Shown here: piece by piece, positions 4,941-46,363 of the stretch
Position numbering within the stretch: the first letter of the stretch is position 1
Layout: every line of letters begins with the position of its first letter
Virus record (IMG/VR): IMGVR_UViG_3300007722_000005
Span: 28,206 to 92,205 of that record
Reading direction: 5' to 3' (one strand)
DNA from: a virus
Length of the DNA: 64,000 nucleotides
The notes under the pieces: generated by a model
The model's database searches: none
Told to the model about the DNA's origin: nothing
Seen by the model: the letters and a program-made list of their open reading frames with translations, nothing else
Position numbers and translations under genes: made by a program

Positions 4941-4946
4941 ATTGTT

Positions 4947-5118: not shown

Positions 5119-5174
5119 TTTGCGTGAAGTTATAAGGTTGTCAAGCCAACCTTCTCAAATCATGAGATGAAAAT

Positions 5175-5251
5175 TGGTCGGAGTACAAGGATTCGAACCT
5201 TGGACCCTCTGCTCCCAAAGCAGATGCGCTGCCAGACTGCGCTACACTCCG
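5175..5251 (-). tRNA. tRNA-Pro(UGG)
   Basis: Canonical cloverleaf, C1-G72. Confidence 0.95.
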
Positions 5252-5256
5252 AAACT

Positions 5257-5330
5257 TGGTGCCCCTTGACGGAATCGAACCGCCGTAAGCTGCTTACAAA
5301 ACAGCCGTAATACCATTATACTAAAGGGGC
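5257..5330 (-). tRNA. tRNA-Thr(UGU)
   Basis: Cloverleaf with encoded CCA. Confidence 0.92.
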
Positions 5331-5402
5331 AAATTATATTAATTACTTTTCTAAGTCAACTACTCGACCGCTGAGCTATCGAGTAATAATTCTATTTATA
5401 GT

Positions 5403-5615
5403 CTACGTTTCTTCCATTCCTGACGCTCCAGAGAGGCTTACACAATTTGGATCCTCTGCAATTACCGCAACAAACCGCATGTGGATGCTTCGCAACGTTG
5501 CTGCAATCGAAAGAGCGTCGCTCAAATCGCTGGCAACGTGGCCTTGTGTTACACTATCAAGCGTTGTCCAATATACTTTATATTCAGCTTTGTTCATATG
5601 TTTTACTTGTGACAC
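5403..5615 (-). CDS. hypothetical protein
   Basis: ORF inside the tRNA array. Confidence 0.55.
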   Translation of the reverse strand: MSQVKHMNKAEYKVYWTTLDSVTQGHVASDLSDALSIAATLRSIHMRFVAVIAEDPNCVSLSGASGMEET

Positions 5616-5840
5616 TATCGTTTAAGCCCGCTCAGGCCCGCACCCTCGAGGTATGTTGACCATATTTGCAAGACTCCTATGTAGCTTTCATAGGCGTAAC
5701 GCCACAAGTAAAACATTCGGCTCAGTACACCGAGAGGTATGATGAGTATCCTTTATGGTGTAGGGGACGTCCAGGCACATCACCGCGGTACACCATTTCA
5801 TCTTCTTTTGTTGCACTAAGGCGAAGAATCTTCAGAAGGT

Positions 5841-5914
5841 AACCTTTTCAACAATGTCTATTATACTACCATTTAAAGAATAGTCAACACTTTTCTTTTT
5901 ATTGTTAATTCGGC
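5841..5914 (-). repeat. 74-bp direct repeat, copy 1, carrying a sigma70 promoter (TTGACT-N17-TATAAT)
   Basis: Identical to 7343..7416 except for 1 nt in the -10 box. Confidence 0.9.
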
Positions 5915-6505
5915 TGTGTACTTCTCTTTAATTCTGTGAAGCTGTCCCGTTGCCCACTCCAAATTCCTGATGTATTGGTGTTGTTCAGAAGTTTGTTGAA
6001 CACCAACAACGGTGTTTAACCGTCGGTCAAAAAACTCTTCTGGCATGTTGTCGTGTGTTATTATAGTTCCTCTTGTAGGGAAGAATTGAACATATCTGCG
6101 CATGAATTCATTCCACTGTTCAATATGTTCAACAGGAGCTGTAAAATTAAATAGTTGAATTTCTGTTGATATCCTGAAACCAAACTGTTTTGCAAGAAGG
6201 AAGCTGAGTCCTGCTTGAACCATATCTTTTTCGACAACGAAAATTTCGTGCCGTGTTGTTTTCATCACCTTTTTGTACCACGCAATTGATTGTGGGAATC
6301 GGCAAAGATGATGGCCATGCAACTTTATAACAGTGTTTCCATTGTTCAAGCGATGAAGTAACCAATATTTTCGAAATACTGATGCAAAATTATCATCGTA
6401 ACGAGGTGCAAACGGCTCATAAATTTTGTTTTGTCGTTTGCACGAATGAAAAATAGCGCTACCATCTGTGCGGCGGTGGCTGTAAATTATTACTGGGTTT
6501 TTCAT
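5873..6505 (-). CDS. sulfotransferase-like P-loop protein (putative)
   Basis: IIYSHRRTDGSA..EPF..VIKLH pattern; preceded by TATAAATA at 6529-6536. Confidence 0.5.
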   Translation of the reverse strand: MKNPVIIYSHRRTDGSAIFHSCKRQNKIYEPFAPRYDDNFASVFRKYWLLHRLNNGNTVIKLHGHHLCRFPQSIAWYKKVMKTTRHEIFVVEKDMVQAGLSFLLAKQFGFRISTEIQLFNFTAPVEHIEQWNEFMRRYVQFFPTRGTIITHDNMPEEFFDRRLNTVVGVQQTSEQHQYIRNLEWATGQLHRIKEKYTAELTIKRKVLTIL

Positions 6506-6537
6506 AACACATCCTTTTTGAGATGTATTATTTATAA

Positions 6538-6614
6538 TGGTGCGAGTCATGGGAGTCGAACCCACACTGACCAGGTTTTAAATCTGGCGCCTCTTCCAAT
6601 TGGGCTACACTCGC
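6538..6614 (-). tRNA. tRNA-Leu(UAA), short variable loop
   Basis: Cloverleaf with encoded CCA. Confidence 0.88.
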
Positions 6615-6620
6615 GAAACT

Positions 6621-6695
6621 TGGAGCCCTGTGACAGATTCGAGCTGTCCTCTGAACTTTACGAAAGTTCTGTGTCGCCGTCTACACTTACGGGGC
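6621..6695 (-). tRNA. tRNA-Thr(CGU)
   Basis: Cloverleaf with encoded CCA. Confidence 0.85.
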
Positions 6696-6701
6696 AAAAC
6701 T

Positions 6702-6777
6702 TGGTGCGTCCCACAGGAATCGAACCTGTTTCAATGGCTCTTCAAACCACCGCTATGACCACATCAGCTAGAGACGC
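6702..6777 (-). tRNA. tRNA-Phe(GAA)
   Basis: Cloverleaf with encoded CCA. Confidence 0.9.
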
Positions 6778-6813
6778 AAATATCTCCGTTACACTATTTG
6801 TAGCTATTAAATT

Positions 6814-6887
6814 TGGAGACTCGAGACAGAGTTGAACTGTCATCTTCGGGTTTGCAATCCGAGGCACGGCCGTTATACCACCGAGTC
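6814..6887 (-). tRNA. tRNA-Cys(GCA)
   Basis: Cloverleaf, U73. Confidence 0.9.
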
Positions 6888-6893
6888 ATTGTT

Positions 6894-6970
6894 TGGTGCG
6901 CGAGGTGGGACTCGAACCCACAGAACCTACCCTCTCAAGATAGTATGTTTACCAATTTCATCACAAGCGC
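6894..6970 (-). tRNA. tRNA-Leu(GAG), short variable loop
   Basis: Cloverleaf with encoded CCA. Confidence 0.85.
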
Positions 6971-6979
6971 GTTGTTAGT

Positions 6980-7059
6980 TGGTGGAGTGAAAGAGAGTCG
7001 AACTCTAAGGCTACTAGTATGAGCGACCGCAAGGTCGCCGCCGCGATCCGAACCACCCC
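6980..7059 (-). ncRNA. Ala-acceptor tRNA-like RNA resembling the tmRNA tRNA-like domain
   Basis: G3-U70, A73, CCA and T-arm present; no D-stem; internal hairpin GCGACC-UUGC-GGUCGC. Confidence 0.6.
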
Positions 7060-7064
7060 GTATT

Positions 7065-7137
7065 TGGTACCCCATGAAGGAATTTAACCCTCGCAACTGA
7101 GCTTCGAAGGCTCTGCGCCGACATCATCGGATGGGAT
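7065..7137 (-). tRNA. tRNA-Arg(UCG), atypical D-arm
   Basis: Same CCGAUGAUGUCGG D region as 2704..2776. Confidence 0.72.
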
Positions 7138-7140
7138 ATT

Positions 7141-7212
7141 TGGCAACGGTGCACGGAGTCAAACCGTGTTGTATTTCCTTCAGAGGGAAAACCAGCTTCA
7201 AGCTTCACCGCA
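7141..7212 (-). tRNA. tRNA-Gln(CUG), short D-loop
   Basis: UUUCC-CUCUGAA-GGAAA; G73. Confidence 0.72.
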
Positions 7213-7220
7213 ATTGTTCT

Positions 7221-7297
7221 TGGTGCCCTAGAGGGGACTCGAACCCCTAAAATCTACATTCTAAGTGTAGCACGTATGCCAATTCCGTCACCAGGGC
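7221..7297 (-). tRNA. tRNA-Leu(UAG), short variable loop
   Basis: Cloverleaf with encoded CCA. Confidence 0.9.
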
Positions 7298-7342
7298 AAT
7301 ATTATTTAGATGTTATTAGTGTTGGTGTTTCCACGTTCACTC

Positions 7343-7416
7343 AACCTTTTCAACAATGTCTATTGTACTACCATTTAAAGAATAGTCAACACTTTTCTTT
7401 TTATTGTTAATTCGGC
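7343..7416 (-). repeat. 74-bp direct repeat, copy 2, with promoter (TTGACT-N17-TACAAT)
   Basis: Matches 5841..5914. Confidence 0.9.
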
Positions 7417-7437
7417 CTTGCGGCTCTCGCGTTGTAC

Positions 7438-7514
7438 TGGTGGGGGTAGAGGGATTCGAACCCACAATGACCCAGATTCAAAGTCTGGTACGCTTCCAGT
7501 CGCGTGTTACCCCT
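7438..7514 (-). tRNA. tRNA-Gln(UUG)
   Basis: CCAGA-CUUUGAA-UCUGG. Confidence 0.85.
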
Positions 7515-7520
7515 ATTGTT

Positions 7521-7594
7521 TGGTACTCCGGGAAGGAATCAAACCTTCGTGGGCCCCTTATCAAGAGGCTATCTTATCATTAGATGACCGGAGC
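7521..7594 (-). tRNA. tRNA-Ile(GAU)
   Basis: Cloverleaf with encoded CCA. Confidence 0.85.
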
Positions 7595-7600
7595 ATATTT

Positions 7601-7690
7601 TGGCGGAAAGCAGAGCGATCGAAGCCCAAACCCTTTCAGGTTCCAACCGATTAGCAATCGGCGCCGCACTCCATGCGCAATTTACTTTCC
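7601..7690 (-). tRNA. tRNA-Ser(GCU)
   Basis: Long V-arm, G73. Confidence 0.88.
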
Positions 7691-7695
7691 AAATA

Positions 7696-7771
7696 TGGTC
7701 TTTCAGGTGAGACTCGAACTCACGAAATCTTCGCCCCAAACGAAGTGGTATAGCCGCTAACCGACTGAAAG
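7696..7771 (-). tRNA. tRNA-Pro(UGG), second copy
   Basis: CUUCG-UUUGGGG-CGAAG. Confidence 0.88.
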
Positions 7772-7940
7772 ATATTCATTCCGTGTTTTCTATAGCACGG
7801 AGTATAACTTACCGGAGCCCATATAACCGTCATCAAGTGACTCGGTCTTATGAACTCCGACGTAGATTTTATTATTCACGAGTTAGTGATTTGATAGAGG
7901 CAATATTTCATGCCTCTATCGATAATAGATCTACTATGTG

Positions 7941-8012
7941 CTCCATCTCCTGGGATCGAACCAGGGACCTAGCGATTAACAGTCGCTTGCACTACCGCTG
8001 TGCTAAGATGGA
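7941..8012 (-). tRNA. tRNA-Asn(GUU), no encoded CCA
   Basis: U1-A72, canonical cloverleaf. Confidence 0.9.
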
Positions 8013-8018
8013 ATAACT

Positions 8019-8113
8019 TGGCTCCGCAGAGAGGCTTCGAACCTCTATATTGCGCCTTTCGGCCTTTACGTCTCATTAACAGTGAGGTCTCTTACCAATT
8101 AGAGTACCGCGGA
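8019..8113 (-). tRNA. tRNA-Asn(GUU) with long variable arm
   Basis: U1-A72, CUGUUAA loop, about 24-nt V region with a GCC-GAAA-GGC hairpin. Confidence 0.82.
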
Positions 8114-8164
8114 ATAAATCTTTATAATTCATATATCTCGTTGGAAATACATCAATTATAACGA

Positions 8165-8243
8165 TGGTGGGAGCGCCGGGATTCGAACCCGAATCTATCA
8201 GATTAAAAGTCTGTTGTGTTAAATCCGTTGACACCACACTCCC
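8165..8243 (-). tRNA. tRNA-Lys(UUU)
   Basis: Cloverleaf with encoded CCA. Confidence 0.88.
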
Positions 8244-8313
8244 ATTTGTTTACTACGTTTACCATCTTTCGATTTTCGTTTCATATCAAGATCCTTTTTT
8301 GATAAATATTAAC

Positions 8314-8472
8314 ATGCAAAAACTACAAAATTTTAAAGCCTTCTTTCAGCGCAATAAAAAGCAGGCTGAAGCCGAACCCCACACTGGCCCCGATCGTCGG
8401 AAAGGACCACGTCGCACTGTGACGAAGATTAAAACAAACTATACCGCGTGGCATGATCGCCGTGCTGCATAA
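8314..8472 (+). CDS. small basic protein (52 aa), on the strand opposite the array
   Basis: MQKLQNF...GPDRRKGPRR...HDRRAA; fills a tRNA-free gap; ATAAATA upstream. Confidence 0.5.
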   Translation: MQKLQNFKAFFQRNKKQAEAEPHTGPDRRKGPRRTVTKIKTNYTAWHDRRAA

Positions 8473-8475
8473 TGC

Positions 8476-8556
8476 CAAGAGTGTCCTAGGCCACTAGACG
8501 ATCTCGCACACGCCAGTAGCGTGGGTCGAGTGGGATTTGAACCCACGTCTCTCTTG
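8476..8556 (-). ncRNA. circularly permuted tRNA-like module (YrlA/Y-RNA-like), copy A
   Basis: Order T-arm, loop-closed acceptor-like stem, D-arm; ends pair CAAGAG/CUCUUG. Confidence 0.55.
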
Positions 8557-8559
8557 TTC

Positions 8560-8635
8560 TGGCGCCGAGGACGGGGATTGAACCCGCCTGAGAATGATCG
8601 ACAGTCATCCTGTATCCCCAGATAGCTACCTCGGC
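8560..8635 (-). tRNA. tRNA-Asp(GUC)
   Basis: Cloverleaf, G73. Confidence 0.85.
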
Positions 8636-8666
8636 AAATATGGAGTTGCGTAAACGCAACATTGTT

Positions 8667-8794
8667 TGGGACGCGATGGTGAGGTTTTCACTCACGACGA
8701 TTTACAAGATCGCTATCAGCTTTACCCCTCATGGTTGTAACCCCACTACTCATAAAGCATTCCTGTGGACTCGGTCACCACAGCTTCACCGCGT
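8667..8794 (-). ncRNA. 8/5-type oversized tRNA-like RNA ending in CCA
   Basis: 8-bp acceptor, 6-bp D-stem, 6-bp stem closing a 28-nt loop, V-arm, 5-bp T-stem. Confidence 0.55.
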
Positions 8795-8795
8795 T

Positions 8796-8869
8796 TGGAG
8801 CACCTGCGCGGATTCGAACCGCGTTCAATAGTTTGGAAAACTATGTCCTCTCCCAGGAGCGACAGATGC
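8796..8869 (-). tRNA. tRNA-Gly(UCC)
   Basis: Cloverleaf, U73. Confidence 0.85.
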
Positions 8870-8903
8870 ATTAGTTGAATGTCGACTATTTATAATATTG
8901 TTT

Positions 8904-8978
8904 TGGCGGCCCTGCACGGAATCGAACCGCGTTGGCTGGTTTTGGAGACCAGTGCATCACCTTTCATGCTTCAGGGAC
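8904..8978 (-). tRNA. tRNA-Trp(CCA)
   Basis: CUGGU-CUCCAAA-ACCAG. Confidence 0.9.
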
Positions 8979-9146
8979 ATAATTTAATTTGAGCTAAGAC
9001 AAAAAGGACTCGAACCTTCGCTTTCGCCAGAACCAGTTGTGCACCTACGTCTATAAACGTTTCCACAACCTTCTCAGCAACATGCAAACCCTACATTATA
9101 TCAAATTCACACAACAATTATAGTTGCAAGTGTGAACCTCAAAACT

Positions 9147-9230
9147 TGGTGGTTGTGGTAGGATTCGAACCTACTCAGCTAGTGGGCCACTGATTTACAG
9201 TCAGCTTATCTCTCCAAGGAATGCACAACC
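9147..9230 (-). tRNA. tRNA-Tyr(GUA)
   Basis: Long V-arm, CUGUAAA loop. Confidence 0.88.
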
Positions 9231-9247
9231 ATTGTAATACGAAATCT

Positions 9248-9321
9248 TGGTGGTTCTAGAAGGTAACGATCCTTCGTCGCACGATTATCAGTCGTGTGCT
9301 CTACCTTTGAGCTACAGAACC
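9248..9321 (-). tRNA. tRNA-Ile(GAU), second copy
   Basis: Cloverleaf with encoded CCA. Confidence 0.9.
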
Positions 9322-9331
9322 TAAAAGGCGG

Positions 9332-9393
9332 GAGTGTCCTACCACTATACGATTACCCTCACGAGGGTAAGTGGAAATCGAATCCACGTCTCT
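9332..9393 (-). ncRNA. circularly permuted tRNA-like module (YrlA/Y-RNA-like), copy B
   Basis: T-arm GUGGA-UUCGAUU-UCCAC, hairpin UUACCCU-CGUG-AGGGUAA, then D-arm GUAUAGUGGUAGGAC. Confidence 0.6.
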
Positions 9394-9402
9394 TTCTTTA
9401 CT

Positions 9403-9477
9403 TGGCGGTCCCAAGGGGTAACGATCCCCTTCTTCGACAGTGACAGTGTCGTGTGCGTCCATGAACACTTTGGAACC
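9403..9477 (-). tRNA. tRNA-Asp(GUC), second copy
   Basis: Cloverleaf, G73. Confidence 0.88.
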
Positions 9478-9489
9478 GAATGCAATAAC

Positions 9490-9581
9490 TGGCGGAGAGC
9501 AGAGGAGTCGAACCCCATCCCCTTTCGGGGAACCTAGTTTTCAAGGCTAGTCGACACACCAACGCGTCTGCATTACTCTCC
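9490..9581 (-). tRNA. tRNA-Ser(UGA)
   Basis: Long V-arm, G73. Confidence 0.88.
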
Positions 9582-9589
9582 ATTAATAC

Positions 9590-9664
9590 TGGTGCACCCG
9601 AGGAGAATCGAACTCCCTTTCGCAGATTGAAAGTCTGCTGTCCTAACCGGTAGACGACGGATGC
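9590..9664 (-). tRNA. tRNA-Glu(UUC)
   Basis: Canonical cloverleaf. Confidence 0.93.
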
Positions 9665-9745
9665 ATAATTCGCAGGCGTATTCCGGAGCAGCTCACGCAA
9701 GGTGAGTGCCCATTGAGTCATCAACTCAACTTACGCCATTGATCT

Positions 9746-9820
9746 TGGTGGGCCCTGTGGGATTTTAACCCACATCGTCTCGGGTAAGAGCCGAGTGTAA
9801 TAACGTTATACGAAAGACCC
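9746..9820 (-). tRNA. tRNA-Lys(CUU)
   Basis: Cloverleaf with a deviant T-loop. Confidence 0.8.
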
Positions 9821-9826
9821 ATAATT

Positions 9827-9900
9827 TGGAGCGGGATAGGAGAATCGAACTCCTTTAACTAGTTTGGAAGACTAGGACACAACCAATATGCCAATCCCGC
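9827..9900 (-). tRNA. tRNA-Gly(UCC), second copy
   Basis: Canonical cloverleaf. Confidence 0.92.
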
Positions 9901-24117: not shown

Positions 24118-24312
24118 CTACTGTGCTATCTTGGTCTTTCTTAGAGCACCGACAGCCATTTTGACAACACGAGGATGGGTTTTCATCCGAAGTATGTAGA
24201 AAGGTTTCCCTTCAATATCTTCGGTCCCCATATAAAAGGCTTCAAAATACTCACCGGACATGATGTTCGTGTATGCTGCTAGTGGGTATTTTTTTGTTCT
24301 GCTTTGTTTCAT
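24118..24312 (-). CDS. hypothetical protein
   Basis: ATGA overlap with folE. Confidence 0.55.
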   Translation of the reverse strand: MKQSRTKKYPLAAYTNIMSGEYFEAFYMGTEDIEGKPFYILRMKTHPRVVKMAVGALRKTKIAQ

Positions 24313-25034
24313 TTTTCTGCGGACTGCATCCTAATATTGTTATAAAATTCTGCCTTAACAGAATCGTTGTGGAATAGACCGTGGACAACTGACGTTTGAG
24401 TGAGACTCGAGTGGGCTTCAACTCCTCTGTTCTCCATACAACCATGATGGGCTTGTATATAAACAGCAACATTTTCTGTGTCAGTTGCGTTCTTGATTTC
24501 GTTTGCTATTTGATTGACGAGGTCCTCTTGCAGCTGGCCGCGTCTCGCACACCACTGCGCAATTCGAGCGTATTTCGAAAGCCCAATAACTTCACCCGTC
24601 GGGATAATCCCAATATATGCTACACCATTGACTGGTTGGTGGTGATGTGAACACATTGATGTTATTTCTGCACGAACAACTAACATTCCCTCAAACCTGT
24701 TAGGTCCTTCATTGGGGAATGCGGTAATATCTGGTTTTGCTGTGTATCTGCCGACCATCAGCTCGTTGATATACATCTTGGCGAGACGCCTCGCCGTTCC
24801 TTTAGAATTTGGGTCATTATTGACATCAATGACAAGTGAGTGCAGCACTCCTTCAAACTTTGAAGCTACCTCGTCAATCAACTGATTAATCTCACCATCT
24901 TGTATTGCATCGGAGATGTTGTCGCCAGCCCAAAATCGTTTGTTGTTTGCAATTAGCCGTTCGCGAATATAGGTTGATGTCGGTTTGCGCGACACTGCTA
25001 TACCTTTATCTTCGTCGTCATACAAAATATTCAT
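24309..25034 (-). CDS. folE: GTP cyclohydrolase I
   Basis: SMCSHHHQP, IGLSKYAR, QLQE, HGCMENRG. Confidence 0.96.
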   Translation of the reverse strand: MNILYDDEDKGIAVSRKPTSTYIRERLIANNKRFWAGDNISDAIQDGEINQLIDEVASKFEGVLHSLVIDVNNDPNSKGTARRLAKMYINELMVGRYTAKPDITAFPNEGPNRFEGMLVVRAEITSMCSHHHQPVNGVAYIGIIPTGEVIGLSKYARIAQWCARRGQLQEDLVNQIANEIKNATDTENVAVYIQAHHGCMENRGVEAHSSLTQTSVVHGLFHNDSVKAEFYNNIRMQSAEK

Positions 25035-26239: not shown

Positions 26240-26469
26240 TACTTCTCCTTGAATCCTTCGATCACACCAGATACCCCAGCGTGATAAATATCACGATAAC
26301 CATCTGGTGTTGCAACGTAAAGCAGCATTGAGATAATGAGGGCGATACCGACGATGACCGCGAATATCGCTCCAATCCACTTAACAAAAAACAGCAGAAC
26401 CTTCGCCCCTAAGTAGACGCAAAAGCCTGCTGCGAGTAACAGTAAAATTTCCATAACATTATTATTCAT
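26239..26469 (-). CDS. membrane protein
   Basis: Two hydrophobic segments. Confidence 0.6.
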   Translation of the reverse strand: MNNNVMEILLLLAAGFCVYLGAKVLLFFVKWIGAIFAVIVGIALIISMLLYVATPDGYRDIYHAGVSGVIEGFKEK

Positions 26470-26515
26470 AATGCCAGCTTACACTAGATTACTGGTGAGG
26501 TCAACCTCTCATTAA
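26461..26515 (-). repeat. 55-bp promoter cassette, copy 2
   Basis: Matches 25630..25684. Confidence 0.88.
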
Positions 26516-26815
26516 TTGAAATTTCTTGAGTGGCTTACGCTGATCACCTACAAGAGGAAACGTACAGATAGCTGTATGACCAGCAATCTCTGGCATCGTC
26601 TCCTTGAAGATCTTGTACTTGATCCCATGCATCTCAAGGTGCATTGCAATCTCTTCGAGCTCTACTTCACATTTTGCAGGAGAGAGTACAAAATTAACTG
26701 CGCCCTCTTGAGGACCAATTTCTGATCCAACCCACATACAGACGTGGCCTGCTTGCACAATCTGCTGAGGCACAGTGAGATCGGTTCTCACGAACACATA
26801 TGAGTATTTGTTCAT
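26501..26815 (-). CDS. peptidyl-tRNA hydrolase, Pth2 family
   Basis: YVFVRTDL..PQQIVQAGH...TAIC..P...KFQLM. Confidence 0.82.
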   Translation of the reverse strand: MNKYSYVFVRTDLTVPQQIVQAGHVCMWVGSEIGPQEGAVNFVLSPAKCEVELEEIAMHLEMHGIKYKIFKETMPEIAGHTAICTFPLVGDQRKPLKKFQLMRG

Positions 26816-27144
26816 TACGTCGTCTCAATTGTGGCATAATTAATTATGCGTGAGATCTCTTTGCAGTGATCTTCTGTCAGGGTTGGACCGAATATCTTTT
26901 GCAGTGCGTCAGGCCGGCACAGCCAGTACAATGCAGCGCGCTTCGCTGATATCAACGCGTGGTTGGCAGTAAGTCCGTTGTCAAGTTTGTTTTGGCTCGT
27001 CACCGGTGTGAATCCCTTACTCATATCTGCGCCACGGATGACGTTATAGATCAGGTAATGGAATGCCCTGCAGTGTTCAGCTTTTTTGAAGCAGTCTTTG
27101 ATCACAAGAAACTCATTTTTTTTATCTTTGAATACATAGTTCAT
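26815..27144 (-). CDS. hypothetical protein translationally coupled to Pth2
   Basis: AGGAG SD; HYLIYNVIRG..GFTP; TAATG overlap. Confidence 0.7.
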   Translation of the reverse strand: MNYVFKDKKNEFLVIKDCFKKAEHCRAFHYLIYNVIRGADMSKGFTPVTSQNKLDNGLTANHALISAKRAALYWLCRPDALQKIFGPTLTEDHCKEISRIINYATIETT

Positions 27145-27151
27145 GGTATAT

Positions 27152-27223
27152 CTCCTAGTAGTTGTCAAATTCGGGAAGGGATCTACTAGTGAGTCTTTAT
27201 GGTGGGTGTATCTAGAGTTTCAT
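27152..27223 (-). promoter_or_regulatory. amber-containing uORF (MKL*IHPP, 27197-27223) plus SD-overlapping hairpin
   Basis: AGGAG-N6-ATG AAA CTC TAG ATA CAC CCA CCA TAA; CTAGTAG/CTACTAG stem overlaps the downstream AGGAG. Confidence 0.6.
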
Positions 27224-27232
27224 CTCCATCTC

Positions 27233-27403
27233 CTATCGAAAGCTTTTAAGAATTGAAATAGTAACTACAATGATTGAGGACATAATTGCACCTACTCTGA
27301 TTGGATCAGTGCTCATGTAGATTAAACCTATAAGCAATCCACATGTTAGTGGAGTGACAGCGGCCAAATAGCAGAATATATCAGACCCAGTCAATTTTCT
27401 CAT
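27233..27403 (-). CDS. small membrane protein (56 aa), ends in TAG
   Basis: Own translation MRKLTGSDIFCYLAAV...ILKSFR; ATGA overlap upstream. Confidence 0.5.
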   Translation of the reverse strand: MRKLTGSDIFCYLAAVTPLTCGLLIGLIYMSTDPIRVGAIMSSIIVVTISILKSFR

Positions 27404-27600
27404 GTGTTAAGTAATAGCAGAGATGTGGTGATGATAGTACCTGCTCCAATAACCATAAAAAGGCGTGCCCTGAATTCAAGTTCCTGAATTCGATCTGCAG
27501 CTTCTTCGAGTATATCGGAAATACGATCCGGCTCCGCTCGAGGTATGCCTCGGCGAATCTCAGCGCGCTTTCTTAACCTGTATTTTATATCCCATGCCAT
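27400..27600 (-). CDS. hypothetical protein, paralog of 944..1126
   Basis: RLRKRAEIRRGIP..DRISDILEEAAD plus a hydrophobic tail. Confidence 0.6.
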   Translation of the reverse strand: MAWDIKYRLRKRAEIRRGIPRAEPDRISDILEEAADRIQELEFRARLFMVIGAGTIITTSLLLLNT

Positions 27601-27638
27601 ATATTCTCTACCGTACTTATATTAAGTTAAACATATCT

Positions 27639-27713
27639 TGGCGCTCCCGGTGGGAATCGAACCCACTGTCTCGGTTTTAGAGACCGCTGCCGCAACCAAT
27701 TGGCTTCAGGAGC
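27639..27713 (-). tRNA. amber suppressor tRNA (CUA), Trp-like body
   Basis: CGGU-CUCUAAA-ACCG arm, G73, canonical D and T arms, encoded CCA. Confidence 0.9.
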
Positions 27714-27719
27714 AAATAT

Positions 27720-28409
27720 TTATATCAACTTCCAGTTTGAAATTGGCATTAAACCATAACTTTTAGCTTCAACAGTTTTATATGTAAACACGATGTCCCC
27801 AGCGAGGCAAATTCTCATGTTTTCTGGCCCTATCTTTGAGGGAATGCTGTTCTCACGAAGTGTATATTCATTTTCCTCACCAGACCCCGTAAAATGATCA
27901 ACAGACGCGGGAAACACAAGCAACATTCCTTCGGTTGGTAGTATGCTAAAGTTGTGGGCGTTGAACTCATTCCACTCGGTTGCGTTCTGTGAATATATGT
28001 TTTTGTAGAATTGATTGGGACGAGGAGAAATAAAACAGATTCTATCCGGTGTAAATGATGTTGGAATGTTGACGTAATAAACAAACGACAACTGAGCGTC
28101 AGCGTGGTTGTGCACAGGGACACTCCAATCCTTCGTTATCATCAGCCACGACTTAACTATGTATAGGTTTTGAAATTCAGGATCGAGGCCGCACTCTTTT
28201 ATATGGTCCTTAACCGCACGACCTATGAAAGCATACAGATCAGCAAAAGCAACACCGTGTTGAAGATCGTTGTGACCCGTGTTTTCGTTAGATTGGAGAT
28301 TGTCGTTGCTGTGTTGAGGTAACACGTTAAAGAATGCTGGCTTAAATTCAGCAAATCGTGGATATACACTCTCCGTTATAAGAGTGGGAAACAGTCTGTG
28401 CTTTTTCAT
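27720..28409 (-). CDS. 2OG-Fe(II) oxygenase (TIGR02466-like)
   Basis: LFPT, HNH, SFVYYV, FPASVDH, RICLA. Confidence 0.82.
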   Translation of the reverse strand: MKKHRLFPTLITESVYPRFAEFKPAFFNVLPQHSNDNLQSNENTGHNDLQHGVAFADLYAFIGRAVKDHIKECGLDPEFQNLYIVKSWLMITKDWSVPVHNHADAQLSFVYYVNIPTSFTPDRICFISPRPNQFYKNIYSQNATEWNEFNAHNFSILPTEGMLLVFPASVDHFTGSGEENEYTLRENSIPSKIGPENMRICLAGDIVFTYKTVEAKSYGLMPISNWKLI

Positions 28410-28424
28410 ACTACCACCAAGAAC

Positions 28425-28646
28425 TTAATTTTCGTCATCAAATTCATAACCAAAATCTTCCTTGAGAATGTCGCGGATTGTGGCGTTGTCGTAAAACATC
28501 GATTCGTCGACAGTATCGTAGTCTGCATTAAACATCTCGTCAATAAAATGGACGAGTTTTTTTCTTTTGGTTGGAGCCTTGTCGGTTGATGTTAGTATTG
28601 CTCCAACACCCGCGTCAAATATTGCTGTTCCTCCAGCCCATCCCAC
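28425..28646 (-). CDS. hypothetical protein
   Basis: MGWAGGTAIFD..DYDT. Confidence 0.55.
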   Translation of the reverse strand: MGWAGGTAIFDAGVGAILTSTDKAPTKRKKLVHFIDEMFNADYDTVDESMFYDNATIRDILKEDFGYEFDDEN

Positions 28647-29281: not shown

Positions 29282-29740
29282 TTAATCTCCTCTTATCCAC
29301 ATCGCAGAATTGGCTGGAGTTTCAGATACCTTTACCATCCTCAGTTTCACACGACCGTCGCTGTAACCGTTATCACCTAACCAGATCTCGTTGATATAAT
29401 CAGCGAGCCACTTGGCAATACCTTCACAGCCAGTTCTTTCAACAACTACCATCTTACAGAGTCCCTTTTTATGGAGCTCTTCAAACGTATTGAACTCTGG
29501 ATCATCTTGAGCGACAAGTAGAGTGTGATCAAACCAGTCATCCAGATTTTCTTTTAGTGTTTTGAATCCACCGAAATCTGCTACCCAGTTACGCTGATCA
29601 AGAACCTCTGCTTCAAATTCAAAGTGAAACGCAAGTGCGTATCCGTGAATCAGATTGCAGTGAGTGTCTGCTCTCCACTGACGATATGCGACAGCGTAAC
29701 CTTTCTCATGCCCGTATGTCTTAGTACTTACAAATTTCAT
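29282..29740 (-). CDS. queD: 6-carboxytetrahydropterin synthase
   Basis: HCNLIHGY, DFG, FDHT, CEG, VSET. Confidence 0.92.
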   Translation of the reverse strand: MKFVSTKTYGHEKGYAVAYRQWRADTHCNLIHGYALAFHFEFEAEVLDQRNWVADFGGFKTLKENLDDWFDHTLLVAQDDPEFNTFEELHKKGLCKMVVVERTGCEGIAKWLADYINEIWLGDNGYSDGRVKLRMVKVSETPANSAMWIRGD

Positions 29741-29813
29741 AGAATCTCCATTACGTGAACCGGGAAGTTGATTGTGCGCCACCCGAGTGCCTCAATAACT
29801 TTTTTCTTTACGA

Positions 29814-30101
29814 TCATTTTTTCTCCAGTGCATGATACACCCGATACATAGCAGAGCCAGCAGCGATGTGGCCACCGTTTGTTGCTGTTCCGATATAATC
29901 GTAACTTCCATCTGCTGGTATTACTTCTCCAGTATAGATGAGACGCACTTCTCTTGATAGTTTGGTGGCTGAATCTTGGTCAATAAGTGCATACACGACC
30001 ACCTGAAATGGCTCACATTCTATATGTAAGAATACTGCACCTATGTCCAAGAGCAGGGAGTTTGACCCCATGTTCAGCGGAAATTTATGTATAACTTTCA
30101 T
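29814..30101 (-). CDS. hypothetical protein
   Basis: IHKFPL...TG...YIGT. Confidence 0.6.
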   Translation of the reverse strand: MKVIHKFPLNMGSNSLLLDIGAVFLHIECEPFQVVVYALIDQDSATKLSREVRLIYTGEVIPADGSYDYIGTATNGGHIAAGSAMYRVYHALEKK

Positions 30102-30553
30102 TTTGCCTCCCAGAAGAATTCTACCCACCTCTTATCGGTTTGTCTATCGATAAGGTAACCCGTAAGCACGGCGTCTGCCGCTGGTTTACCATCAACTACA
30201 ACCTCTGTATTAACAACTAGAGCAGCAAACTTTGCTTTTGGTAGTTGTTTTTGAACTTCCTTTAGAGTTTTTCCACTATCCACTATGTCATCAACAACTA
30301 ATATGTTACTTGTGTGTTTTTCATACAACTCGCGGATCTTGTCGCTTACAATTTGGTCAAACCCATCACGAGTTTGCCAATCCAGTACCTCACATGGTAC
30401 ACCAAGTTTGTGAGAAAGGGCAACAGCTGGAACTAATCCACCCCTCTTGATTCCTACGACAATTTTAGGATAGTAGTTTTCGAGCGCCATTTGTTCCATT
30501 ATTACCACAAGCGAGGCTTTGAACTTTTCGTGTGTGAAGTGAATTTTGCTCAT
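30098..30553 (-). CDS. type I phosphoribosyltransferase
   Basis: RGGLVPAV and LVVDDIVDSGKT (PRPP motif). Confidence 0.9.
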   Translation of the reverse strand: MSKIHFTHEKFKASLVVIMEQMALENYYPKIVVGIKRGGLVPAVALSHKLGVPCEVLDWQTRDGFDQIVSDKIRELYEKHTSNILVVDDIVDSGKTLKEVQKQLPKAKFAALVVNTEVVVDGKPAADAVLTGYLIDRQTDKRWVEFFWEAK

Positions 30554-30563
30554 TGTGGAAATA

Positions 30564-31019
30564 TCATGCTGGTCGTAGCTTGTATATTGGTTTTGGAGGA
30601 TAGCATGGGAAATCGATCCACACGCGGCTGTTGGGTTGTGTAGTGTAGCAGCTCTGGTATTCTTTTCCTTCATCATCGTTTACCATGTCGTAAAACACAA
30701 TTCCGTTGATGTCGTATGCGCGCCCACCTTTACTATCCTTGAAAATATGGCTACAACGGTTGTTCTGGAACAGATCTGCCCCCACTTCGTTCCATTCATG
30801 CTCGTCGCCGGTTAGTGGTGAAAGTGGTTCGAACGCAAGCAACTTTTCCAGCAACCCGAGAGCATACGACGCCGATGATCCCGAGTGGCCTTCATCCGCA
30901 AATTCGTCGACCATGTGAAGTATATGATTGCGCATGGCAACGTTCATCTCATCGCCGTCTTTTGCCATCCCAATCAAATCAAGTTCACGCTCTGCGTGGT
31001 GTCTTAAGCTCACGTTCAA
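30564..31019 (-). CDS. hypothetical phage protein
   Basis: GHSGSSA, PLSPLTG..EW, QNNRCS. Confidence 0.65.
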   Translation of the reverse strand: MNVSLRHHAERELDLIGMAKDGDEMNVAMRNHILHMVDEFADEGHSGSSASYALGLLEKLLAFEPLSPLTGDEHEWNEVGADLFQNNRCSHIFKDSKGGRAYDINGIVFYDMVNDDEGKEYQSCYTTQPNSRVWIDFPCYPPKPIYKLRPA

Positions 31020-44815: not shown

Positions 44816-46363
44816 CTACTCAAGCTGCTCAGCAACAGGAGGAGCCGCCCCTTGCGCTCCTTGGAACGCCGTGAGCTCCGAACCCTCTTCCAACATCTCG
44901 TCACTCATCTCCTGAATTTCTTCGTCGGTCTGCATCAACACAGAGCGTTTGATATATGATTTCGAGTAGTACGTTCCAACATAATTATTCATTATCTCGA
45001 GAACAGCTAGCCGCTCTTTTTCCACCTCGAGATCTTTAAGTTCAGAGAAAAAGTTGTCGCGGGCGTAGTTGTACTTCAATCTGTTTTGGATTCGGGTCCA
45101 ATCGTCCGCGGTGATAATCGATTTAAGAATTAGCTGCTTCTCTAATGCTTTTGTAAACAATTGGCTAAAACGAACACGGAGACGATCGATGAATTTTGCG
45201 AACTTGATTTCATCACGAGAAATCTCTGATGATCTGCCGAGATTGAACGCTTGGTCAGGTTGCAACCTCGAAATAGGAACACTCAAAGCACGGAACAATT
45301 TATTTTGGAAATATTTGATATCTTCAATTTCGCCGAGGTTTTGGCCACCTGGTAGTGTTTGAATTTCCGTTGCTTTCCCATCTCCACGACGAGGTAACCA
45401 GAAGTCTTCAAGCATCGTCATAAACTTACGATCGTCGCGGACTTCACCGGTGCCGACATCATATTGTAACTTATTCTTGTGACGCGTCATCATATCACGA
45501 AGATATTGCTCTGCCTTCATCTTCGGTAAATTACCAACGTCGATGTAAAATATACGACGTTCTGGCGCGCGCGAAATACGATATATTACTGATGCGTCTT
45601 CAATTGTTTTTAATTGATTAAGCGGCTTAATTGCTTTGTGGAGGTAAGACAACACCAACGACGACTTGCTATCAAGAAGTCCGGATGTAACGTGTATAAT
45701 GCTGTCCTTTGCAATCCTGATCCCTTGCGTCGATGTGCTTGACGCAGGCGAAGGACCGGCTGTTGAGAATCCACGTTCTGTGTAAATGAAGTATTCGTTG
45801 ACTACTTCTTGCGTTGATGCTGTTGGATTGTCTTTTGAAGAAAGGCCCTTATTTCGAACTTCTTTGACCTTGCGTATTTTGCGTGGATCAATATAACGGA
45901 GCTCTTGAATACCGTCGGCAGGTTTTGTCTTATCAATTACTGCCTGATAGTACATCCTTCCGTCGATATACCAACGACGGAATATGTCATATCCTTTTTG
46001 ATTGAATCCAAGAAGATCGAAAATATATTCGAACTCTCCTTCGATTTTCTTTTTGATGTTTGGCGAAAGGTCGGTGTTATCGAGGACGAGCTCAACGATA
46101 CGGTCGATCTCTGAATTGATAGATTCGTTGACAATATCGTCGATAGCCGCTTCAACTTCAGGGTGGAGAGACATTTCACGATATCTTGTGACAAGCTCAG
46201 ACTCTGTTTTTGCTGCACCCTCAAGGTCAACATACAACCCATACGAACCGCCAGACGCAACTGTAAGAGCGCCATCGTCCTGAGATTCAGGACCAATAGC
46301 GTCTAAGTTTTTTTTGTTTTCGTCTTCATTCTTGCGGCGGATCTCAAATCCGAAAAAATCCAT
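44816..46363 (-). CDS. 20: portal protein (gp20)
   Basis: RRWYIDGR, YRISRAPERR, EDFWLPRR; ends in TAG. Confidence 0.98.
   Translation of the reverse strand: MDFFGFEIRRKNEDENKKNLDAIGPESQDDGALTVASGGSYGLYVDLEGAAKTESELVTRYREMSLHPEVEAAIDDIVNESINSEIDRIVELVLDNTDLSPNIKKKIEGEFEYIFDLLGFNQKGYDIFRRWYIDGRMYYQAVIDKTKPADGIQELRYIDPRKIRKVKEVRNKGLSSKDNPTASTQEVVNEYFIYTERGFSTAGPSPASSTSTQGIRIAKDSIIHVTSGLLDSKSSLVLSYLHKAIKPLNQLKTIEDASVIYRISRAPERRIFYIDVGNLPKMKAEQYLRDMMTRHKNKLQYDVGTGEVRDDRKFMTMLEDFWLPRRGDGKATEIQTLPGGQNLGEIEDIKYFQNKLFRALSVPISRLQPDQAFNLGRSSEISRDEIKFAKFIDRLRVRFSQLFTKALEKQLILKSIITADDWTRIQNRLKYNYARDNFFSELKDLEVEKERLAVLEIMNNYVGTYYSKSYIKRSVLMQTDEEIQEMSDEMLEEGSELTAFQGAQGAAPPVAEQLE

What the first reader, a model, noticed from the sequence alone, without database searches (positions are those of the whole stretch)
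26501..27713. Candidate amber-readthrough switch: suppressor tRNA(CUA), an MKL*IHPP uORF and an SD-overlapping hairpin ahead of a hypothetical gene and Pth2
Seen (minus strand, in order): an intact tRNA with a CUA anticodon (27639-27713); two short ORFs; a uORF with its own AGGAG, ATG AAA CTC TAG ATA CAC CCA CCA TAA (27197-27223); then, 7 nt after the TAA, a CTAGTAG/CTACTAG stem whose 3' arm overlaps the AGGAG of ORF 26815-27144, which is TAATG-coupled to a Pth2-family gene. The upstream 56-aa ORF also ends in TAG in the same frame. Established: Pro-Pro-stop slows termination, and Pth clears peptidyl-tRNA. Inference: a ribosome stopping at TAG is 22 nt from the stem and leaves it intact, while one reading through dwells at PP-TAA and melts it. 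The operon would then be on only when UAG is suppressed or RF1 is limiting. I do not know of a description of this circuit.
Basis: partly seen in the sequence, partly recalled or inferred. Interest (0 to 1): 0.92.

Follow-up and report, generated by a model that had tools for sequence, protein, structure and literature searches.

The report
Stop-codon-readthrough switch beside phage suppressor tRNA
A T4-like phage that uses the normal genetic code has a tiny leader gene with a UAG stop that probably must be read through by the phage's own UAG-reading tRNA before two downstream genes can be translated. The same design recurs in dozens of distant phages, with the leader's stop codon matching the tRNA's anticodon, and I found no published description of it.

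Summary

- **Conservation:** I recovered about 35 distinct homologous leaders from about 75 related phage loci. Each has SD-ATG, 0-12 codons, an in-frame TAG, 2-13 codons, then x-Pro-Pro, mostly followed by a stop.
- **Reading frame:** The first CCNCCN after such mini-ORFs is in frame in 37 cases against 1 out of frame. The Pro codons vary at wobble positions.
- **Hairpin:** In 30 of 30 leaders the downstream gene's Shine-Dalgarno pairs with a segment on or just after the Pro-Pro codons. Compensatory changes support the pairing.
- **tRNA link:** A tRNA(CUA) usually lies about 25 nt upstream of the leader (415 nt here). One phage with tRNA(UUA) has TAA as the internal stop, and one with tRNA(UCA) has TGA.
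- **Amber in the enzyme gene:** Many relatives, including the cultured phages GAP32 and ME3, also carry an N-terminal TAG in the PTH2-like gene itself.
- **Gene products:** The 104-aa protein has the PTH2 fold. The 109-aa partner belongs to no known family.
- **Genetic code:** The genome otherwise uses TAG as a stop.

Stalling, SD unmasking and the function of the two proteins are inferred, not shown. The scan has already noted this design in at least eight other genomes. I found no paper describing it.

The parts
27639..27713 (-). Suppressor tRNA with anticodon CUA. It has a canonical 7-nt anticodon loop (CU-CUA-AA), discriminator G73 and an encoded CCA.
   Evidence: ARAGORN; Rfam RF00005 at 48.7 bits. 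Its nearest relative is the tRNA(CUA) of L001 at 80% identity.
27400..27600 (-). 66-aa ORF between the tRNA and the leader. It has a homologue in L001 directly upstream of that leader and is not part of the conserved core.
   Evidence: 76% identity over 42 aa to L001:2461-2586
27233..27403 (-). 56-aa hydrophobic ORF that ends in TAG (27235-27233) in the leader's frame. Read-through would run on through EMEMKL-TAG-IHPP-TAA.
27197..27234 (-). Amber-containing leader. Its parts are SD AGGAG 27234-27230, ATG 27223-27221, AAA CTC, in-frame TAG 27214-27212, ATA CAC, Pro-Pro CCA CCA 27205-27200 and TAA 27199-27197.
   Evidence: The leader is conserved in L001 and in about 35 distinct leaders elsewhere. 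Frame test 37:0:1.
27152..27193 (-). SD-sequestering hairpin. The 5' arm CUC.CUAGUAG (27193-27183) pairs with the 3' arm CUACUAGGAG (27161-27152), which contains the main-ORF SD AGGAG (27156-27152). The loop is 21 nt.
   Evidence: The same geometry holds in 30/30 leaders against a mean of 9/30 in shuffles. Compensatory pairs are seen in a sub-family.
26815..27144 (-). 109-aa all-helical protein of no known family. It is the conserved upstream partner of the PTH2-like gene, and its TAA overlaps the next ATG (TAATG).
   Evidence: family alignment A4, 31 members. AF2 pLDDT 92. No fold or family match; weak PHROG 22448 hit of unknown function.
26501..26815 (-). 104-aa PTH2-fold protein (peptidyl-tRNA hydrolase 2-like). 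In this phage it has a plain ATG start and no amber codon.
   Evidence: AF2 pLDDT 94. Foldseek top hits are Bit1/PTH2 1q7s, MJ0051 2zv3, AF2095 3erj and Sso Pth2 1xty, with TM 0.72-0.79. The family profile hits PDB peptidyl-tRNA hydrolase at E 2e-4. 16 of 42 relatives hit Pfam PTH2.

Best explanation
The element is a translational switch whose input is read-through of a stop codon.

**Off state.** The mRNA for the 109-aa and PTH2-like genes starts with a well-initiated mini-ORF (M-K-L) that runs into UAG. Without suppression, RF1 releases the ribosome there, 22 nt before the hairpin. The hairpin keeps the Shine-Dalgarno of the 109-aa gene paired, so the translationally coupled pair stays off.

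**On state.** When the phage's own tRNA(CUA) decodes that UAG, the ribosome goes on through I-H-P-P to UAA. Pro-Pro, and Pro before a stop, are slow steps of peptide-bond formation and termination. A ribosome with the second Pro codon in the P site covers the mRNA out to about +12 to +15. Here that is the CUC and the first bases of CUAGUAG, which pair with the SD. The SD is then freed and the two genes are translated.

**Shown here:**
- all the parts are present;
- the TAG and the Pro-Pro behind it are conserved in frame;
- the anti-SD sits on or just after the Pro-Pro codons in every relative;
- the module is linked to a suppressor tRNA whose anticodon matches the leader's internal stop.

**Inferred:**
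- read-through actually occurs;
- the ribosome stalls;
- the SD is unmasked;
- the direction of regulation is 'on'.

**Speculative.** The purpose of the switch is unknown. The PTH2-like enzyme may deal with a tRNA-linked by-product of suppression. It may instead hydrolyse the suppressor's own ester and so hold read-through at a set level.
For: 1. **Close relative.** L001 (85% identity in the PTH2-like protein, 47% in the 109-aa protein) keeps the leader codon for codon. It has two synonymous changes flanking the TAG, identical stem arms and a diverged loop.
2. **Distant relatives.** Among loci fetched only by homology to the PTH2-like protein, the pattern SD-ATG-(0-12 codons)-stop-(1-14 codons)-CCNCCN occurs 44 times with TAG on the gene strand. 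It occurs 4 times with TAA and 3 with TGA, and 0/1/0 times on the other strand, over 239 kb. That gives 31 distinct leaders, with more in IMG/VR.
3. **Frame.** The first CCNCCN after any SD-ATG..TAG mini-ORF is in frame 0 in 37 cases, frame 1 in 0 and frame 2 in 1. Pro codons vary at third positions.
4. **SD pairing.** The main-ORF SD is paired with a partner lying -6 to +21 nt from the end of Pro-Pro in 30/30 leaders. Shuffles give a mean of 9/30 and a maximum of 17 in 200. In one sub-family the helix is 88% paired against 37-53% when slid, with 3 compensatory pairs. Arms differ between families: CTAGTAG/CTACTAG, CTAGTCA/TGACTAG, CTTATCG/CGATAAG.
5. **tRNA position.** tRNA(CUA) lies upstream on the same strand in about 30 of 60 loci, typically with about 25 nt between the tRNA 3' end and the leader ATG.
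6. **Anticodon matches stop.** L115 has tRNA(UUA) and a leader with internal TAA and terminal TAG, while its sister L124 has internal TAG. The L117/L185 contig has tRNA(UCA), no CUA tRNA among its 15 tRNAs, and internal TGA.
7. **Amber in the enzyme gene.** At least 16 relatives have an N-terminal in-frame stop in the PTH2-like gene with no alternative start, plus internal ones. These stops are always TAG, never TAA or TGA. They include the cultured phages GAP32 and ME3.
8. **TAG is a normal stop here.** 17 of 103 crude ORFs end in TAG, conserved genes are intact under table 11, and opening TAG gives no coding gain specific to it.
9. **Established knowledge, from memory.** Pro-Pro needs EF-P, and C-terminal Pro slows release. 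RAPP/RGPP uORFs stall and unmask a downstream SD (PMC7897499, PMC10951233).
Against: - There is no experimental or expression evidence.
- The window's motif IHPP-stop is not a characterised arrest motif. Pauses at Pro-Pro-stop are relieved by EF-P in healthy cells, so the dwell may be short.
- The window's stem begins at +10 to +14 from the P-site Pro codon, at the edge of the ribosome footprint.
- The hairpin is modest (-10 kcal/mol) and the region as a whole folds no better than shuffles.
- In several families the anti-SD is the CCUCC of the Pro codons themselves, so part of the Pro-Pro conservation there could serve RNA pairing.
- Some relatives (L109-L111) lack a stop after PP and may work by translating through the hairpin and re-initiating.
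- The loci are related by descent, so the counts are not independent events.
- The ochre and opal cases are one lineage each.
- RNAalifold on plain MAFFT alignments predicted no consensus structure.
Confidence: 0.72

Rival explanations
1. The switch senses release-factor availability rather than the suppressor tRNA. It would turn on when RF1 is depleted or inhibited, by the phage or by a host response, and the nearby tRNA(CUA) would only raise the gain.
For: Read-through depends on competition between RF1 and the tRNA, so both affect it. In the window the tRNA lies 415 nt away, with two ORFs in between. Some loci with a leader show no suppressor tRNA within the fetched flanks, for example L108, L109, L114 and L128.
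Against: The internal stop tracks the anticodon of the phage's own suppressor: CUA with TAG, UUA with TAA, UCA with TGA. UAA is read by both release factors, so the ochre variant does not fit a pure RF1 sensor. The usual 25-nt spacing between tRNA and leader implies one transcription unit.
Confidence: 0.1
2. The functional unit is the 3-codon minigene M-K-L-stop, like the bar minigenes of phage lambda. Peptidyl-tRNA drop-off from it would titrate or report peptidyl-tRNA hydrolase capacity upstream of a Pth-like gene. What follows the TAG would be conserved as RNA only.
For: The mini-ORF is very short, has a strong SD and precedes a PTH2-fold gene. Minigene toxicity in Pth-limited cells is established knowledge (from memory).
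Against: The pre-stop part varies from 0 to 11 codons and includes ATG-TAG with no peptide at all. The Pro-Pro behind the stop keeps the frame 37:0:1 with wobble variation. Synonymous changes are seen downstream of the TAG in L001. The stop type follows the suppressor anticodon.
Confidence: 0.05
3. These phages read TAG as a sense codon throughout (code 15-like recoding). The leader would then be an ordinary arrest-peptide uORF and the TAG would carry no regulatory meaning.
For: Phages with TAG reassignment and suppressor tRNAs are known (PMC9523058). Many relatives have TAG inside the PTH2-like gene.
Against: In this genome TAG ends 17 of 103 crude ORFs, including DNA polymerase, portal and sheath. 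These are full-length under table 11. Opening TAG gives fewer extra ORFs and bases than opening TAA or TGA, so there is no sign that TAG is read as sense. No other N-terminal amber gene or leader is found in the 92-kb contig. In-frame TAGs are confined to this module.
Confidence: 0.04
4. Read-through represses rather than activates. A ribosome stalled at PP, or translation into the hairpin region, would lower expression of the downstream genes. This could happen by triggering mRNA cleavage or rescue at the stall.
For: Stalled ribosomes can recruit nucleases and rescue factors (established knowledge). The direction of regulation was not measured.
Against: The anti-SD lies under the stalled ribosome in 30/30 leaders, and the main start is 49-96 nt downstream, beyond steric reach. 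That is the geometry of activating attenuators. The N-terminal TAGs in the PTH2-like gene of many relatives make its synthesis positively dependent on read-through.
Confidence: 0.05

Closest known systems
Ribosome-arrest leader peptides that unmask a downstream Shine-Dalgarno: ErmCL/ermC, SecM/secA, and the RAPP/RGPP uORFs ApdA, ApdP and ApcA (PMC7897499, PMC10951233, PMC12992588)
   Same: A short upstream ORF ends in x-Pro-Pro. A hairpin hides the SD of the next gene, and the arm that hides it lies where a stalled ribosome would sit.
   Different: The input is different: the arrest site can be reached only by reading through a stop codon, not in response to a drug or to secretion status. The window's motif is IHPP-stop, not RAPP or RGPP; among the relatives I saw, only L136 has RGPP. 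The peptide is only 4-15 residues beyond the stop. The regulated genes are a PTH2-like protein and an unknown partner, not Sec/YidC components.
PepNL leader of E. coli (PMC11890864)
   Same: It is a natural leader peptide whose regulatory outcome depends on read-through of a stop codon by a tRNA.
   Different: In PepNL the arrest is at the stop codon, and near-cognate read-through by Trp-tRNA relieves it. Here a dedicated, co-encoded suppressor tRNA is needed to reach the stall site, so read-through would turn the system on.
Engineered 'unnatural amino acid switches' with a TAG placed in a leader peptide such as tna (reviewed in PMC6412442)
   Same: The logic is the same: expression of the downstream gene requires translation of the leader beyond an inserted UAG by an amber suppressor tRNA.
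   Different: Those switches are synthetic and act on transcription through Rho and rut sites. This one is natural, phage-encoded, translational (SD hairpin), and evolutionarily conserved together with its own tRNA.
prfB (RF2) autoregulation by an in-frame UGA and +1 frameshift (established knowledge, from memory)
   Same: An early in-frame stop codon serves as a sensor of the cell's decoding and termination capacity for that stop.
   Different: prfB uses frameshifting within the regulated gene and senses a release factor. Here there is in-frame read-through by a suppressor tRNA in a separate leader, or in relatives in the N-terminus of the PTH2-like gene.
Orphan suppressor tRNAs of standard-code jumbo phages, for example XacN1 (PMC5852040)
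   Same: These are large phages with many tRNA genes, including tRNA(CUA), and a normal genetic code.
   Different: The XacN1 study read through amber stops in silico and found no target genes. Here a specific, conserved target sits next to the tRNA.

Membership tests
PTH2 (peptidyl-tRNA hydrolase 2, Pfam PF01981), for the 104-aa ORF | Sequence match to the family profile | tested here: inconclusive
   The window protein alone has no Pfam hit at E<=0.1. 16 of 42 aligned relatives hit PF01981, best E 3.8e-5. The family profile hits PDB peptidyl-tRNA hydrolase 24bt_A at E 2e-4 and 2zv3 at E 0.07.
PTH2 (peptidyl-tRNA hydrolase 2, Pfam PF01981), for the 104-aa ORF | PTH2 alpha/beta fold | tested here: met
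   The AF2 model has pLDDT 94.3. The 13 best Foldseek hits, all with E <= 0.001, are PTH2/Bit1 structures and uncharacterised proteins of the same fold. The named PTH2 entries (1q7s, 2zv3, 3erj, 1wn2, 1xty) have TM 0.72-0.79 and probability 1.0.
PTH2 (peptidyl-tRNA hydrolase 2, Pfam PF01981), for the 104-aa ORF | Catalytic residues and hydrolase activity on peptidyl-tRNA | tested here: inconclusive
   R10, D12, Q21, H24 and E72 are invariant in the family. In the HMM alignment, the Lys-Lys of the solved enzyme's 'tgKK' segment aligns with Gln-Gln, so the catalytic Lys may be missing. Activity cannot be tested with these tools.
RAPP/RGPP-type regulatory arrest peptides | Arg-Ala/Gly-Pro-Pro at the arrest site | tested here: not met
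   The window has I-H-P-P and L001 has I-R-P-P. Relatives have HSPP, HDPP, xRPP, NGPP and QAPP; RGPP occurs only in L136. What is shared is x-P-P, mostly followed by a stop.
RAPP/RGPP-type regulatory arrest peptides | uORF whose stall site overlaps the arm that sequesters the downstream SD | tested here: met
   This holds in 30/30 leaders, against a mean of 9/30 in shuffles.
RAPP/RGPP-type regulatory arrest peptides | Demonstrated elongation arrest | not testable with these tools
   This needs toeprinting or in vitro translation.
Nonsense suppressor tRNA | Cloverleaf with anticodon CUA in a 7-nt loop, flanked by U33 and a purine at position 37 | tested here: met
   ARAGORN; Rfam tRNA at 48.7 bits. 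The loop reads C-U-CUA-A-A.
Nonsense suppressor tRNA | Aminoacylation and decoding of UAG in vivo | not testable with these tools
   Support is indirect only: conserved in-frame TAGs next to the tRNA, and anticodon-to-stop matching.
Genome-wide TAG reassignment (code 15-type phage) | In-frame TAG in many genes, with TAG not used as a terminator | tested here: not met
   TAG ends 17 of 103 crude ORFs. Core genes are intact under table 11. No other amber-interrupted gene is found in 92 kb.

The most novel reading that the evidence does not exclude
The module is a self-contained homeostat of genetic-code state. The leader, and in relatives the amber codon in the enzyme gene, would measure how efficiently UAG is being read through. 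The PTH2-like enzyme, together with its helical partner, would hydrolyse the suppressor's aminoacyl- or peptidyl-tRNA. Read-through would then be held at a set level that a standard-code phage can tolerate. This would be a natural feedback controller of stop-codon meaning, and it would explain why standard-code phages carry 'orphan' suppressor tRNAs.
Probability: 0.2. Interest if true: 0.95.

Novelty: new variant of a known kind. Interest (0 to 1): 0.86.

Why it matters
Suppressor tRNAs are common in large standard-code phages, and their targets have been an open puzzle. The XacN1 study looked for targets and found none (PMC5852040). This module provides a conserved natural target next to the tRNA, so the question becomes testable.

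The module also looks like a natural sensor of stop-codon read-through. Synthetic biologists built that same logic on purpose by placing TAG in leader peptides (PMC6412442).

It points to two uncharacterised proteins, a PTH2-fold enzyme and a helical partner, that probably act on tRNA-linked intermediates when suppression is active.

The N-terminal TAGs cause these genes to be missed or truncated in deposited phage annotations, for example in GAP32. Cultured phages with related modules (Acinetobacter phage ME3, Cronobacter phage GAP32) make direct experiments possible.

Tried and rejected
- **Nucleotide searches.** Megablast and blastn of the region against 50,697 phage records found nothing beyond weak tRNA similarity.
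- **Leader pattern scan.** An exact leader pattern scan of IMG/VR found only the L001 contig.
- **Hairpin pattern scan.** The pattern CTAGTAG-N20-50-CTACTAGGAG gave 104 stretches. Apart from L001 they were unrelated chance or coding matches.
- **Protein homologues.** The word-index homologue search found only 1 cluster for the 109-aa protein and 7 for the 104-aa protein. Relatives were reached through back-translated patterns instead.
- **Consensus structure.** RNAalifold on MAFFT alignments of two leader sets predicted no consensus structure. The helix was therefore tested with a named structure and per-sequence folds with shuffles.
- **Window fold.** The window's 106-nt fold is not unusually stable (z = -0.41).
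- **Rfam.** No family other than tRNA is found in 26400-27800.
- **109-aa protein.** There is no Pfam match, no PDB sequence match, no Foldseek match, and a best VIA Z of only 4.6.
- **Complex prediction.** Prediction of a complex between the 109-aa and PTH2-like proteins gave no verdict (score 0.00). This is not evidence either way.
- **Other amber targets.** A search of the 92-kb contig for other amber-interrupted genes or leaders found none that are convincing.
- **Amino-acid identity of the tRNA.** It could not be assigned. The nearest tRNAs of the phage itself are Leu-CAA at 74% and Trp at 71%.
- **Promoter scan.** The sigma-70 and terminator scan of 26300-28500 gave counts no higher than shuffles.
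Full report
**1. Context**

The window is part of a 92,205-base virus contig of a T4-like myovirus.
- Pfam finds Gp23 major capsid, T4 portal, tail sheath, large terminase, UvsW, DnaB-like helicase and a family-B DNA polymerase.
- The polymerase is about 45% identical to those of cyanomyoviruses.
- Genes run almost entirely on the minus strand.
- There is an array of 29 tRNA genes at 2455-9900, plus one isolated tRNA with anticodon CUA at 27639-27713.

**2. The observation**

Reading the minus strand confirms each element.
- The tRNA(CUA) lies at 27713-27639.
- It is followed by a 66-aa ORF and a 56-aa ORF.
- The 56-aa ORF ends in TAG at 27235-27233. That TAG is part of the AGGAG (27234-27230) lying 6 nt before the leader ATG.
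- The leader ATG AAA CTC TAG ATA CAC CCA CCA TAA occupies 27223-27197, in the same frame as the 56-aa ORF.
- CTAGTAG (27189-27183) pairs with CTACTAG (27161-27155).
- Folding extends the helix to CUC.CUAGUAG / CUACUAGGAG, so the whole AGGAG of the 109-aa ORF (ATG 27144) is paired.
- The 109-aa ORF and the 104-aa ORF overlap in TAATG.
- The leader pattern is unique in the window and absent from 100 shuffles.
- The hairpin is modest (-10 kcal/mol), and the region as a whole does not fold better than shuffles.

**3. The genome uses the standard code**

- In a crude non-overlapping ORF set, 56 ORFs end in TAA, 30 in TGA and 17 in TAG.
- The TAG-terminated genes include polymerase, portal and sheath, which are full-length by Pfam under table 11.
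- Treating TAG as sense gives no coding gain specific to TAG.
- No other amber-interrupted gene or amber leader turned up in the 92 kb.
- So the tRNA(CUA) is a suppressor in a standard-code phage.

**4. The closest relative**

An IMG/VR contig (L001) encodes an 85%-identical 104-aa protein and a 47%-identical 109-aa homologue.
- Its leader reads ATG AAG CTC TAG ATT AGA CCA CCA TAA.
- It is followed by the same CTC-N-CTAGTAG ... CTACTAGGAGAT, with a diverged loop.
- The two changes next to the TAG, AAA>AAG before it and ATA>ATT after it, are synonymous. This is what translation on both sides of the TAG in one frame predicts.
- L001 also has a tRNA(CUA).
- The genes between tRNA and leader are arranged differently, so the leader and the two-gene unit form the conserved core.

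**5. Distant relatives**

A back-translated pattern scan with an alignment of the 104-aa family fetched 64 metagenome loci at 30-51% identity. A second scan fetched 14 IMG/VR loci. These were chosen without regard to the leader.
- Homologues of the 109-aa protein sit directly upstream of the PTH2-like gene in many of them.
- Upstream of that gene there is again a short ORF with a good SD, an in-frame TAG and x-Pro-Pro behind it.
- Examples are MKL*IHFANGPP.., MNKL*IYCSQAPP.., ML*IHNNGPP**, M*LTIHSPPS*, M*RNRPPPS*, MSTETIIRT*VPHNHDPP* and MEKFR*VVRPP*.

Controls:
- The same pattern occurs 44 times with TAG on the gene strand. It occurs 4 times with TAA and 3 with TGA, and 0/1/0 times on the opposite strand, in 239 kb.
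- For all distinct SD-ATG..TAG mini-ORFs, with no requirement on what follows, the first CCNCCN within 48 nt is in frame 0 in 37 cases, frame 1 in 0 and frame 2 in 1.
- The Pro codons vary freely at third positions: CCA CCA, CCG CCG, CCT CCT, CCA CCC and others.
- I take this as strong evidence that ribosomes read through the TAG in frame.

**6. The hairpin**

- In 30 of 30 distinct leaders, the minimum-energy fold of the segment from the Pro codons to the main ATG pairs the main SD with a partner. That partner lies between -6 and +21 nt from the end of Pro-Pro.
- With the upstream part shuffled, this holds in 9 of 30 on average, and in at most 17 across 200 shuffles.
- The arms differ between families while pairing is kept: CTAGTAG/CTACTAG (window), CTAGTCA/TGACTAG (L109), CTTATCG/CGATAAG (L110), and TCCTG../..CAGGA against TCCTA../..TAGGA.
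- In a 13-member sub-family aligned without reference to structure, the named helix is 88% paired against 37-53% when the partner is slid. It has three pairs with changes on both sides, and its covariation score is above 500 of 500 shuffles.
- In some families the anti-SD is the CCUCC of the Pro codons themselves. In others it is the Ser codon plus stop that follow. In the window it starts 3-7 nt after the TAA.
- The common rule is that the anti-SD lies where a ribosome sitting on Pro-Pro would cover it, and beyond the reach of a ribosome terminating at the internal stop.

**7. Link to the suppressor tRNA**

- ARAGORN finds a tRNA(CUA) upstream on the same strand in about 30 of 60 metagenome loci.
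- In most, the leader ATG starts about 25 nt after the tRNA 3' end. In the window the gap is 415 nt.
- L115 carries tRNA(UUA). Its leader is MIKVTDN-TAA-VPSLHDPP-TAG, whereas its sister L124 has MKKVTDN-TAG-TLSQHDPP-TGA.
- The contig of L117/L185 carries a 78-nt tRNA(UCA) and no CUA tRNA among its 15 tRNAs. Its leader reads ATG TTA TGA ... TCT CCT TGA.
- The leader's internal stop therefore follows the anticodon in all three classes. The ochre and opal classes are single lineages, and the opal leader has only one Pro.

**8. A second gating mode**

- In at least 16 relatives the PTH2-like ORF has no usable start after the nearest upstream in-frame stop. That stop is always TAG, with an ATG 1-13 codons before it. 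Three more have internal TAGs.
- Two cultured phages show this. Cronobacter phage GAP32 reads MAQ*NEKTWIYVFVR, and its deposited CDS starts too late. Acinetobacter phage ME3 reads MT*IHENKKHTYVFVR, with an annotated tRNA of anticodon CTA 450 nt upstream.
- In the window and L001 the enzyme gene has a plain ATG, so only the leader is gated.

**9. The proteins**

- The 104-aa protein is predicted with pLDDT 94. Its 13 best PDB matches by fold are PTH2/Bit1 enzymes and uncharacterised proteins of the same fold. The named PTH2 entries score TM 0.72-0.79.
- The family profile finds a solved peptidyl-tRNA hydrolase at E 2e-4, and 16 of 42 relatives hit Pfam PTH2. The window protein alone does not.
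- A Lys pair of the solved enzyme aligns with Gln in this family, so the chemistry may differ.
- The 109-aa protein is confidently helical (pLDDT 92) with no sequence or fold relative.

**10. Mechanism and rivals**

The best-supported reading is an activating translational attenuator whose input is read-through of the leader's stop by the phage's suppressor tRNA.
- A pure RF1 sensor fits the anticodon-to-stop matching poorly.
- A bar-like minigene fits neither the variable pre-stop length, which includes ATG-TAG, nor the in-frame Pro-Pro.
- General TAG recoding is contradicted by the genome's own stop usage.
- Stalling, unmasking and the direction of control are inferred from geometry and from what is known of Pro-Pro, C-terminal Pro and RAPP-type uORFs (PMC7897499, PMC10951233). 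They have not been measured.
- The window's IHPP-stop is not a characterised arrest motif.

**11. What is known**

- Four full-text searches found no description of an amber-containing leader or of a link between PTH2 and a suppressor tRNA in phages.
- The XacN1 paper states that targets of its CUA tRNAs could not be found.
- PepNL is a natural leader in which stop read-through relieves an arrest.
- Engineered switches place TAG in a leader peptide to make expression depend on amber suppression.

**12. Earlier notes of this scan**

I had already found the conservation when the look-up showed that this scan has noted the same design in at least eight other genomes. Those notes cite RAPP/RGPP peptides as the closest known system and report no publication.

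My own tests agree on three points: the design recurs, it is linked to the tRNA, and the stop matches the anticodon. They do not support RAPP/RGPP membership for this window's minimal IHPP leader.

Noticed in passing
window 27717-27724 (-), and ten other sites: TATAAATA, the T4-type late-promoter motif, occurs 11 times against 2.4 expected. Ten copies are on the coding strand, just upstream of gp23, portal, sheath and other structural genes and within the tRNA array. One copy ends 4 nt before the tRNA(CUA). That is probably too close to yield a full-length tRNA, so whether the module is late-transcribed is open.
   Followed up: partly
window 24309-25034, 29282-29782, 30098-30676, 27720-28409 (-): The module is flanked by GTP cyclohydrolase I, a 6-pyruvoyl-tetrahydropterin synthase (QueD-like), a phosphoribosyltransferase and a 2OG-Fe(II) oxygenase. 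This suggests a 7-deazaguanine-type modification pathway nearby.
   Followed up: partly
L117 (= L185 contig), leader near L117:2538-2567; tRNA at L191:1498-1575: This is an opal variant. The leader is ATG TTA TGA GTT AAA TCC CAA TCT CCT TGA, with a single Pro. Both TGAs are in frame with the ATG of the 109-aa homologue. A tRNA(UCA) lies about 6 kb upstream on the same strand.
   Followed up: partly
L172 (Cronobacter phage GAP32, JN882285.1 about 290140-290464) and L173 (Acinetobacter phage ME3): The PTH2-like genes of these cultured phages begin M-A-Q-TAG and M-T-TAG. The deposited GAP32 CDS (GAP32_397) starts downstream of the conserved YVFVR motif. In several Erwinia and Serratia jumbo phages no gene is annotated under the match at all.
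   Followed up: partly
L124:2342-2417: ARAGORN calls this tRNA Arg(TCT). Its loop, TTCTAAA, is the same as in the CUA tRNAs of the sister loci L118 and L139, so it may be a CUA suppressor with a weak anticodon stem.
   Followed up: no
L109, L110 and L111, about 100 nt upstream of the leaders: These three leaders are preceded by a sigma-70-like TTGACT/TTGACC - 16-17 nt - TATATA, and no tRNA was found in the flanks. They also continue past Pro-Pro (PPLIT..FCG), ending at or near the main ATG (ATGA overlap in L110 and L111). This suggests coupling by translating through the hairpin.
   Followed up: no
window 44816-46363 (-): The portal gene ends in TAG. Read-through would add a 40-residue acidic tail (IEVEPEPEPQDQ...) before TGA. 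There is no evidence that this is used.
   Followed up: no
window 27215-27221 and 27108-27114: A 7-nt inverted repeat, GAAACTC/GAGTTTC, links the leader's first codons to codons 11-13 of the 109-aa ORF, 100 nt apart. It is probably chance.
   Followed up: no
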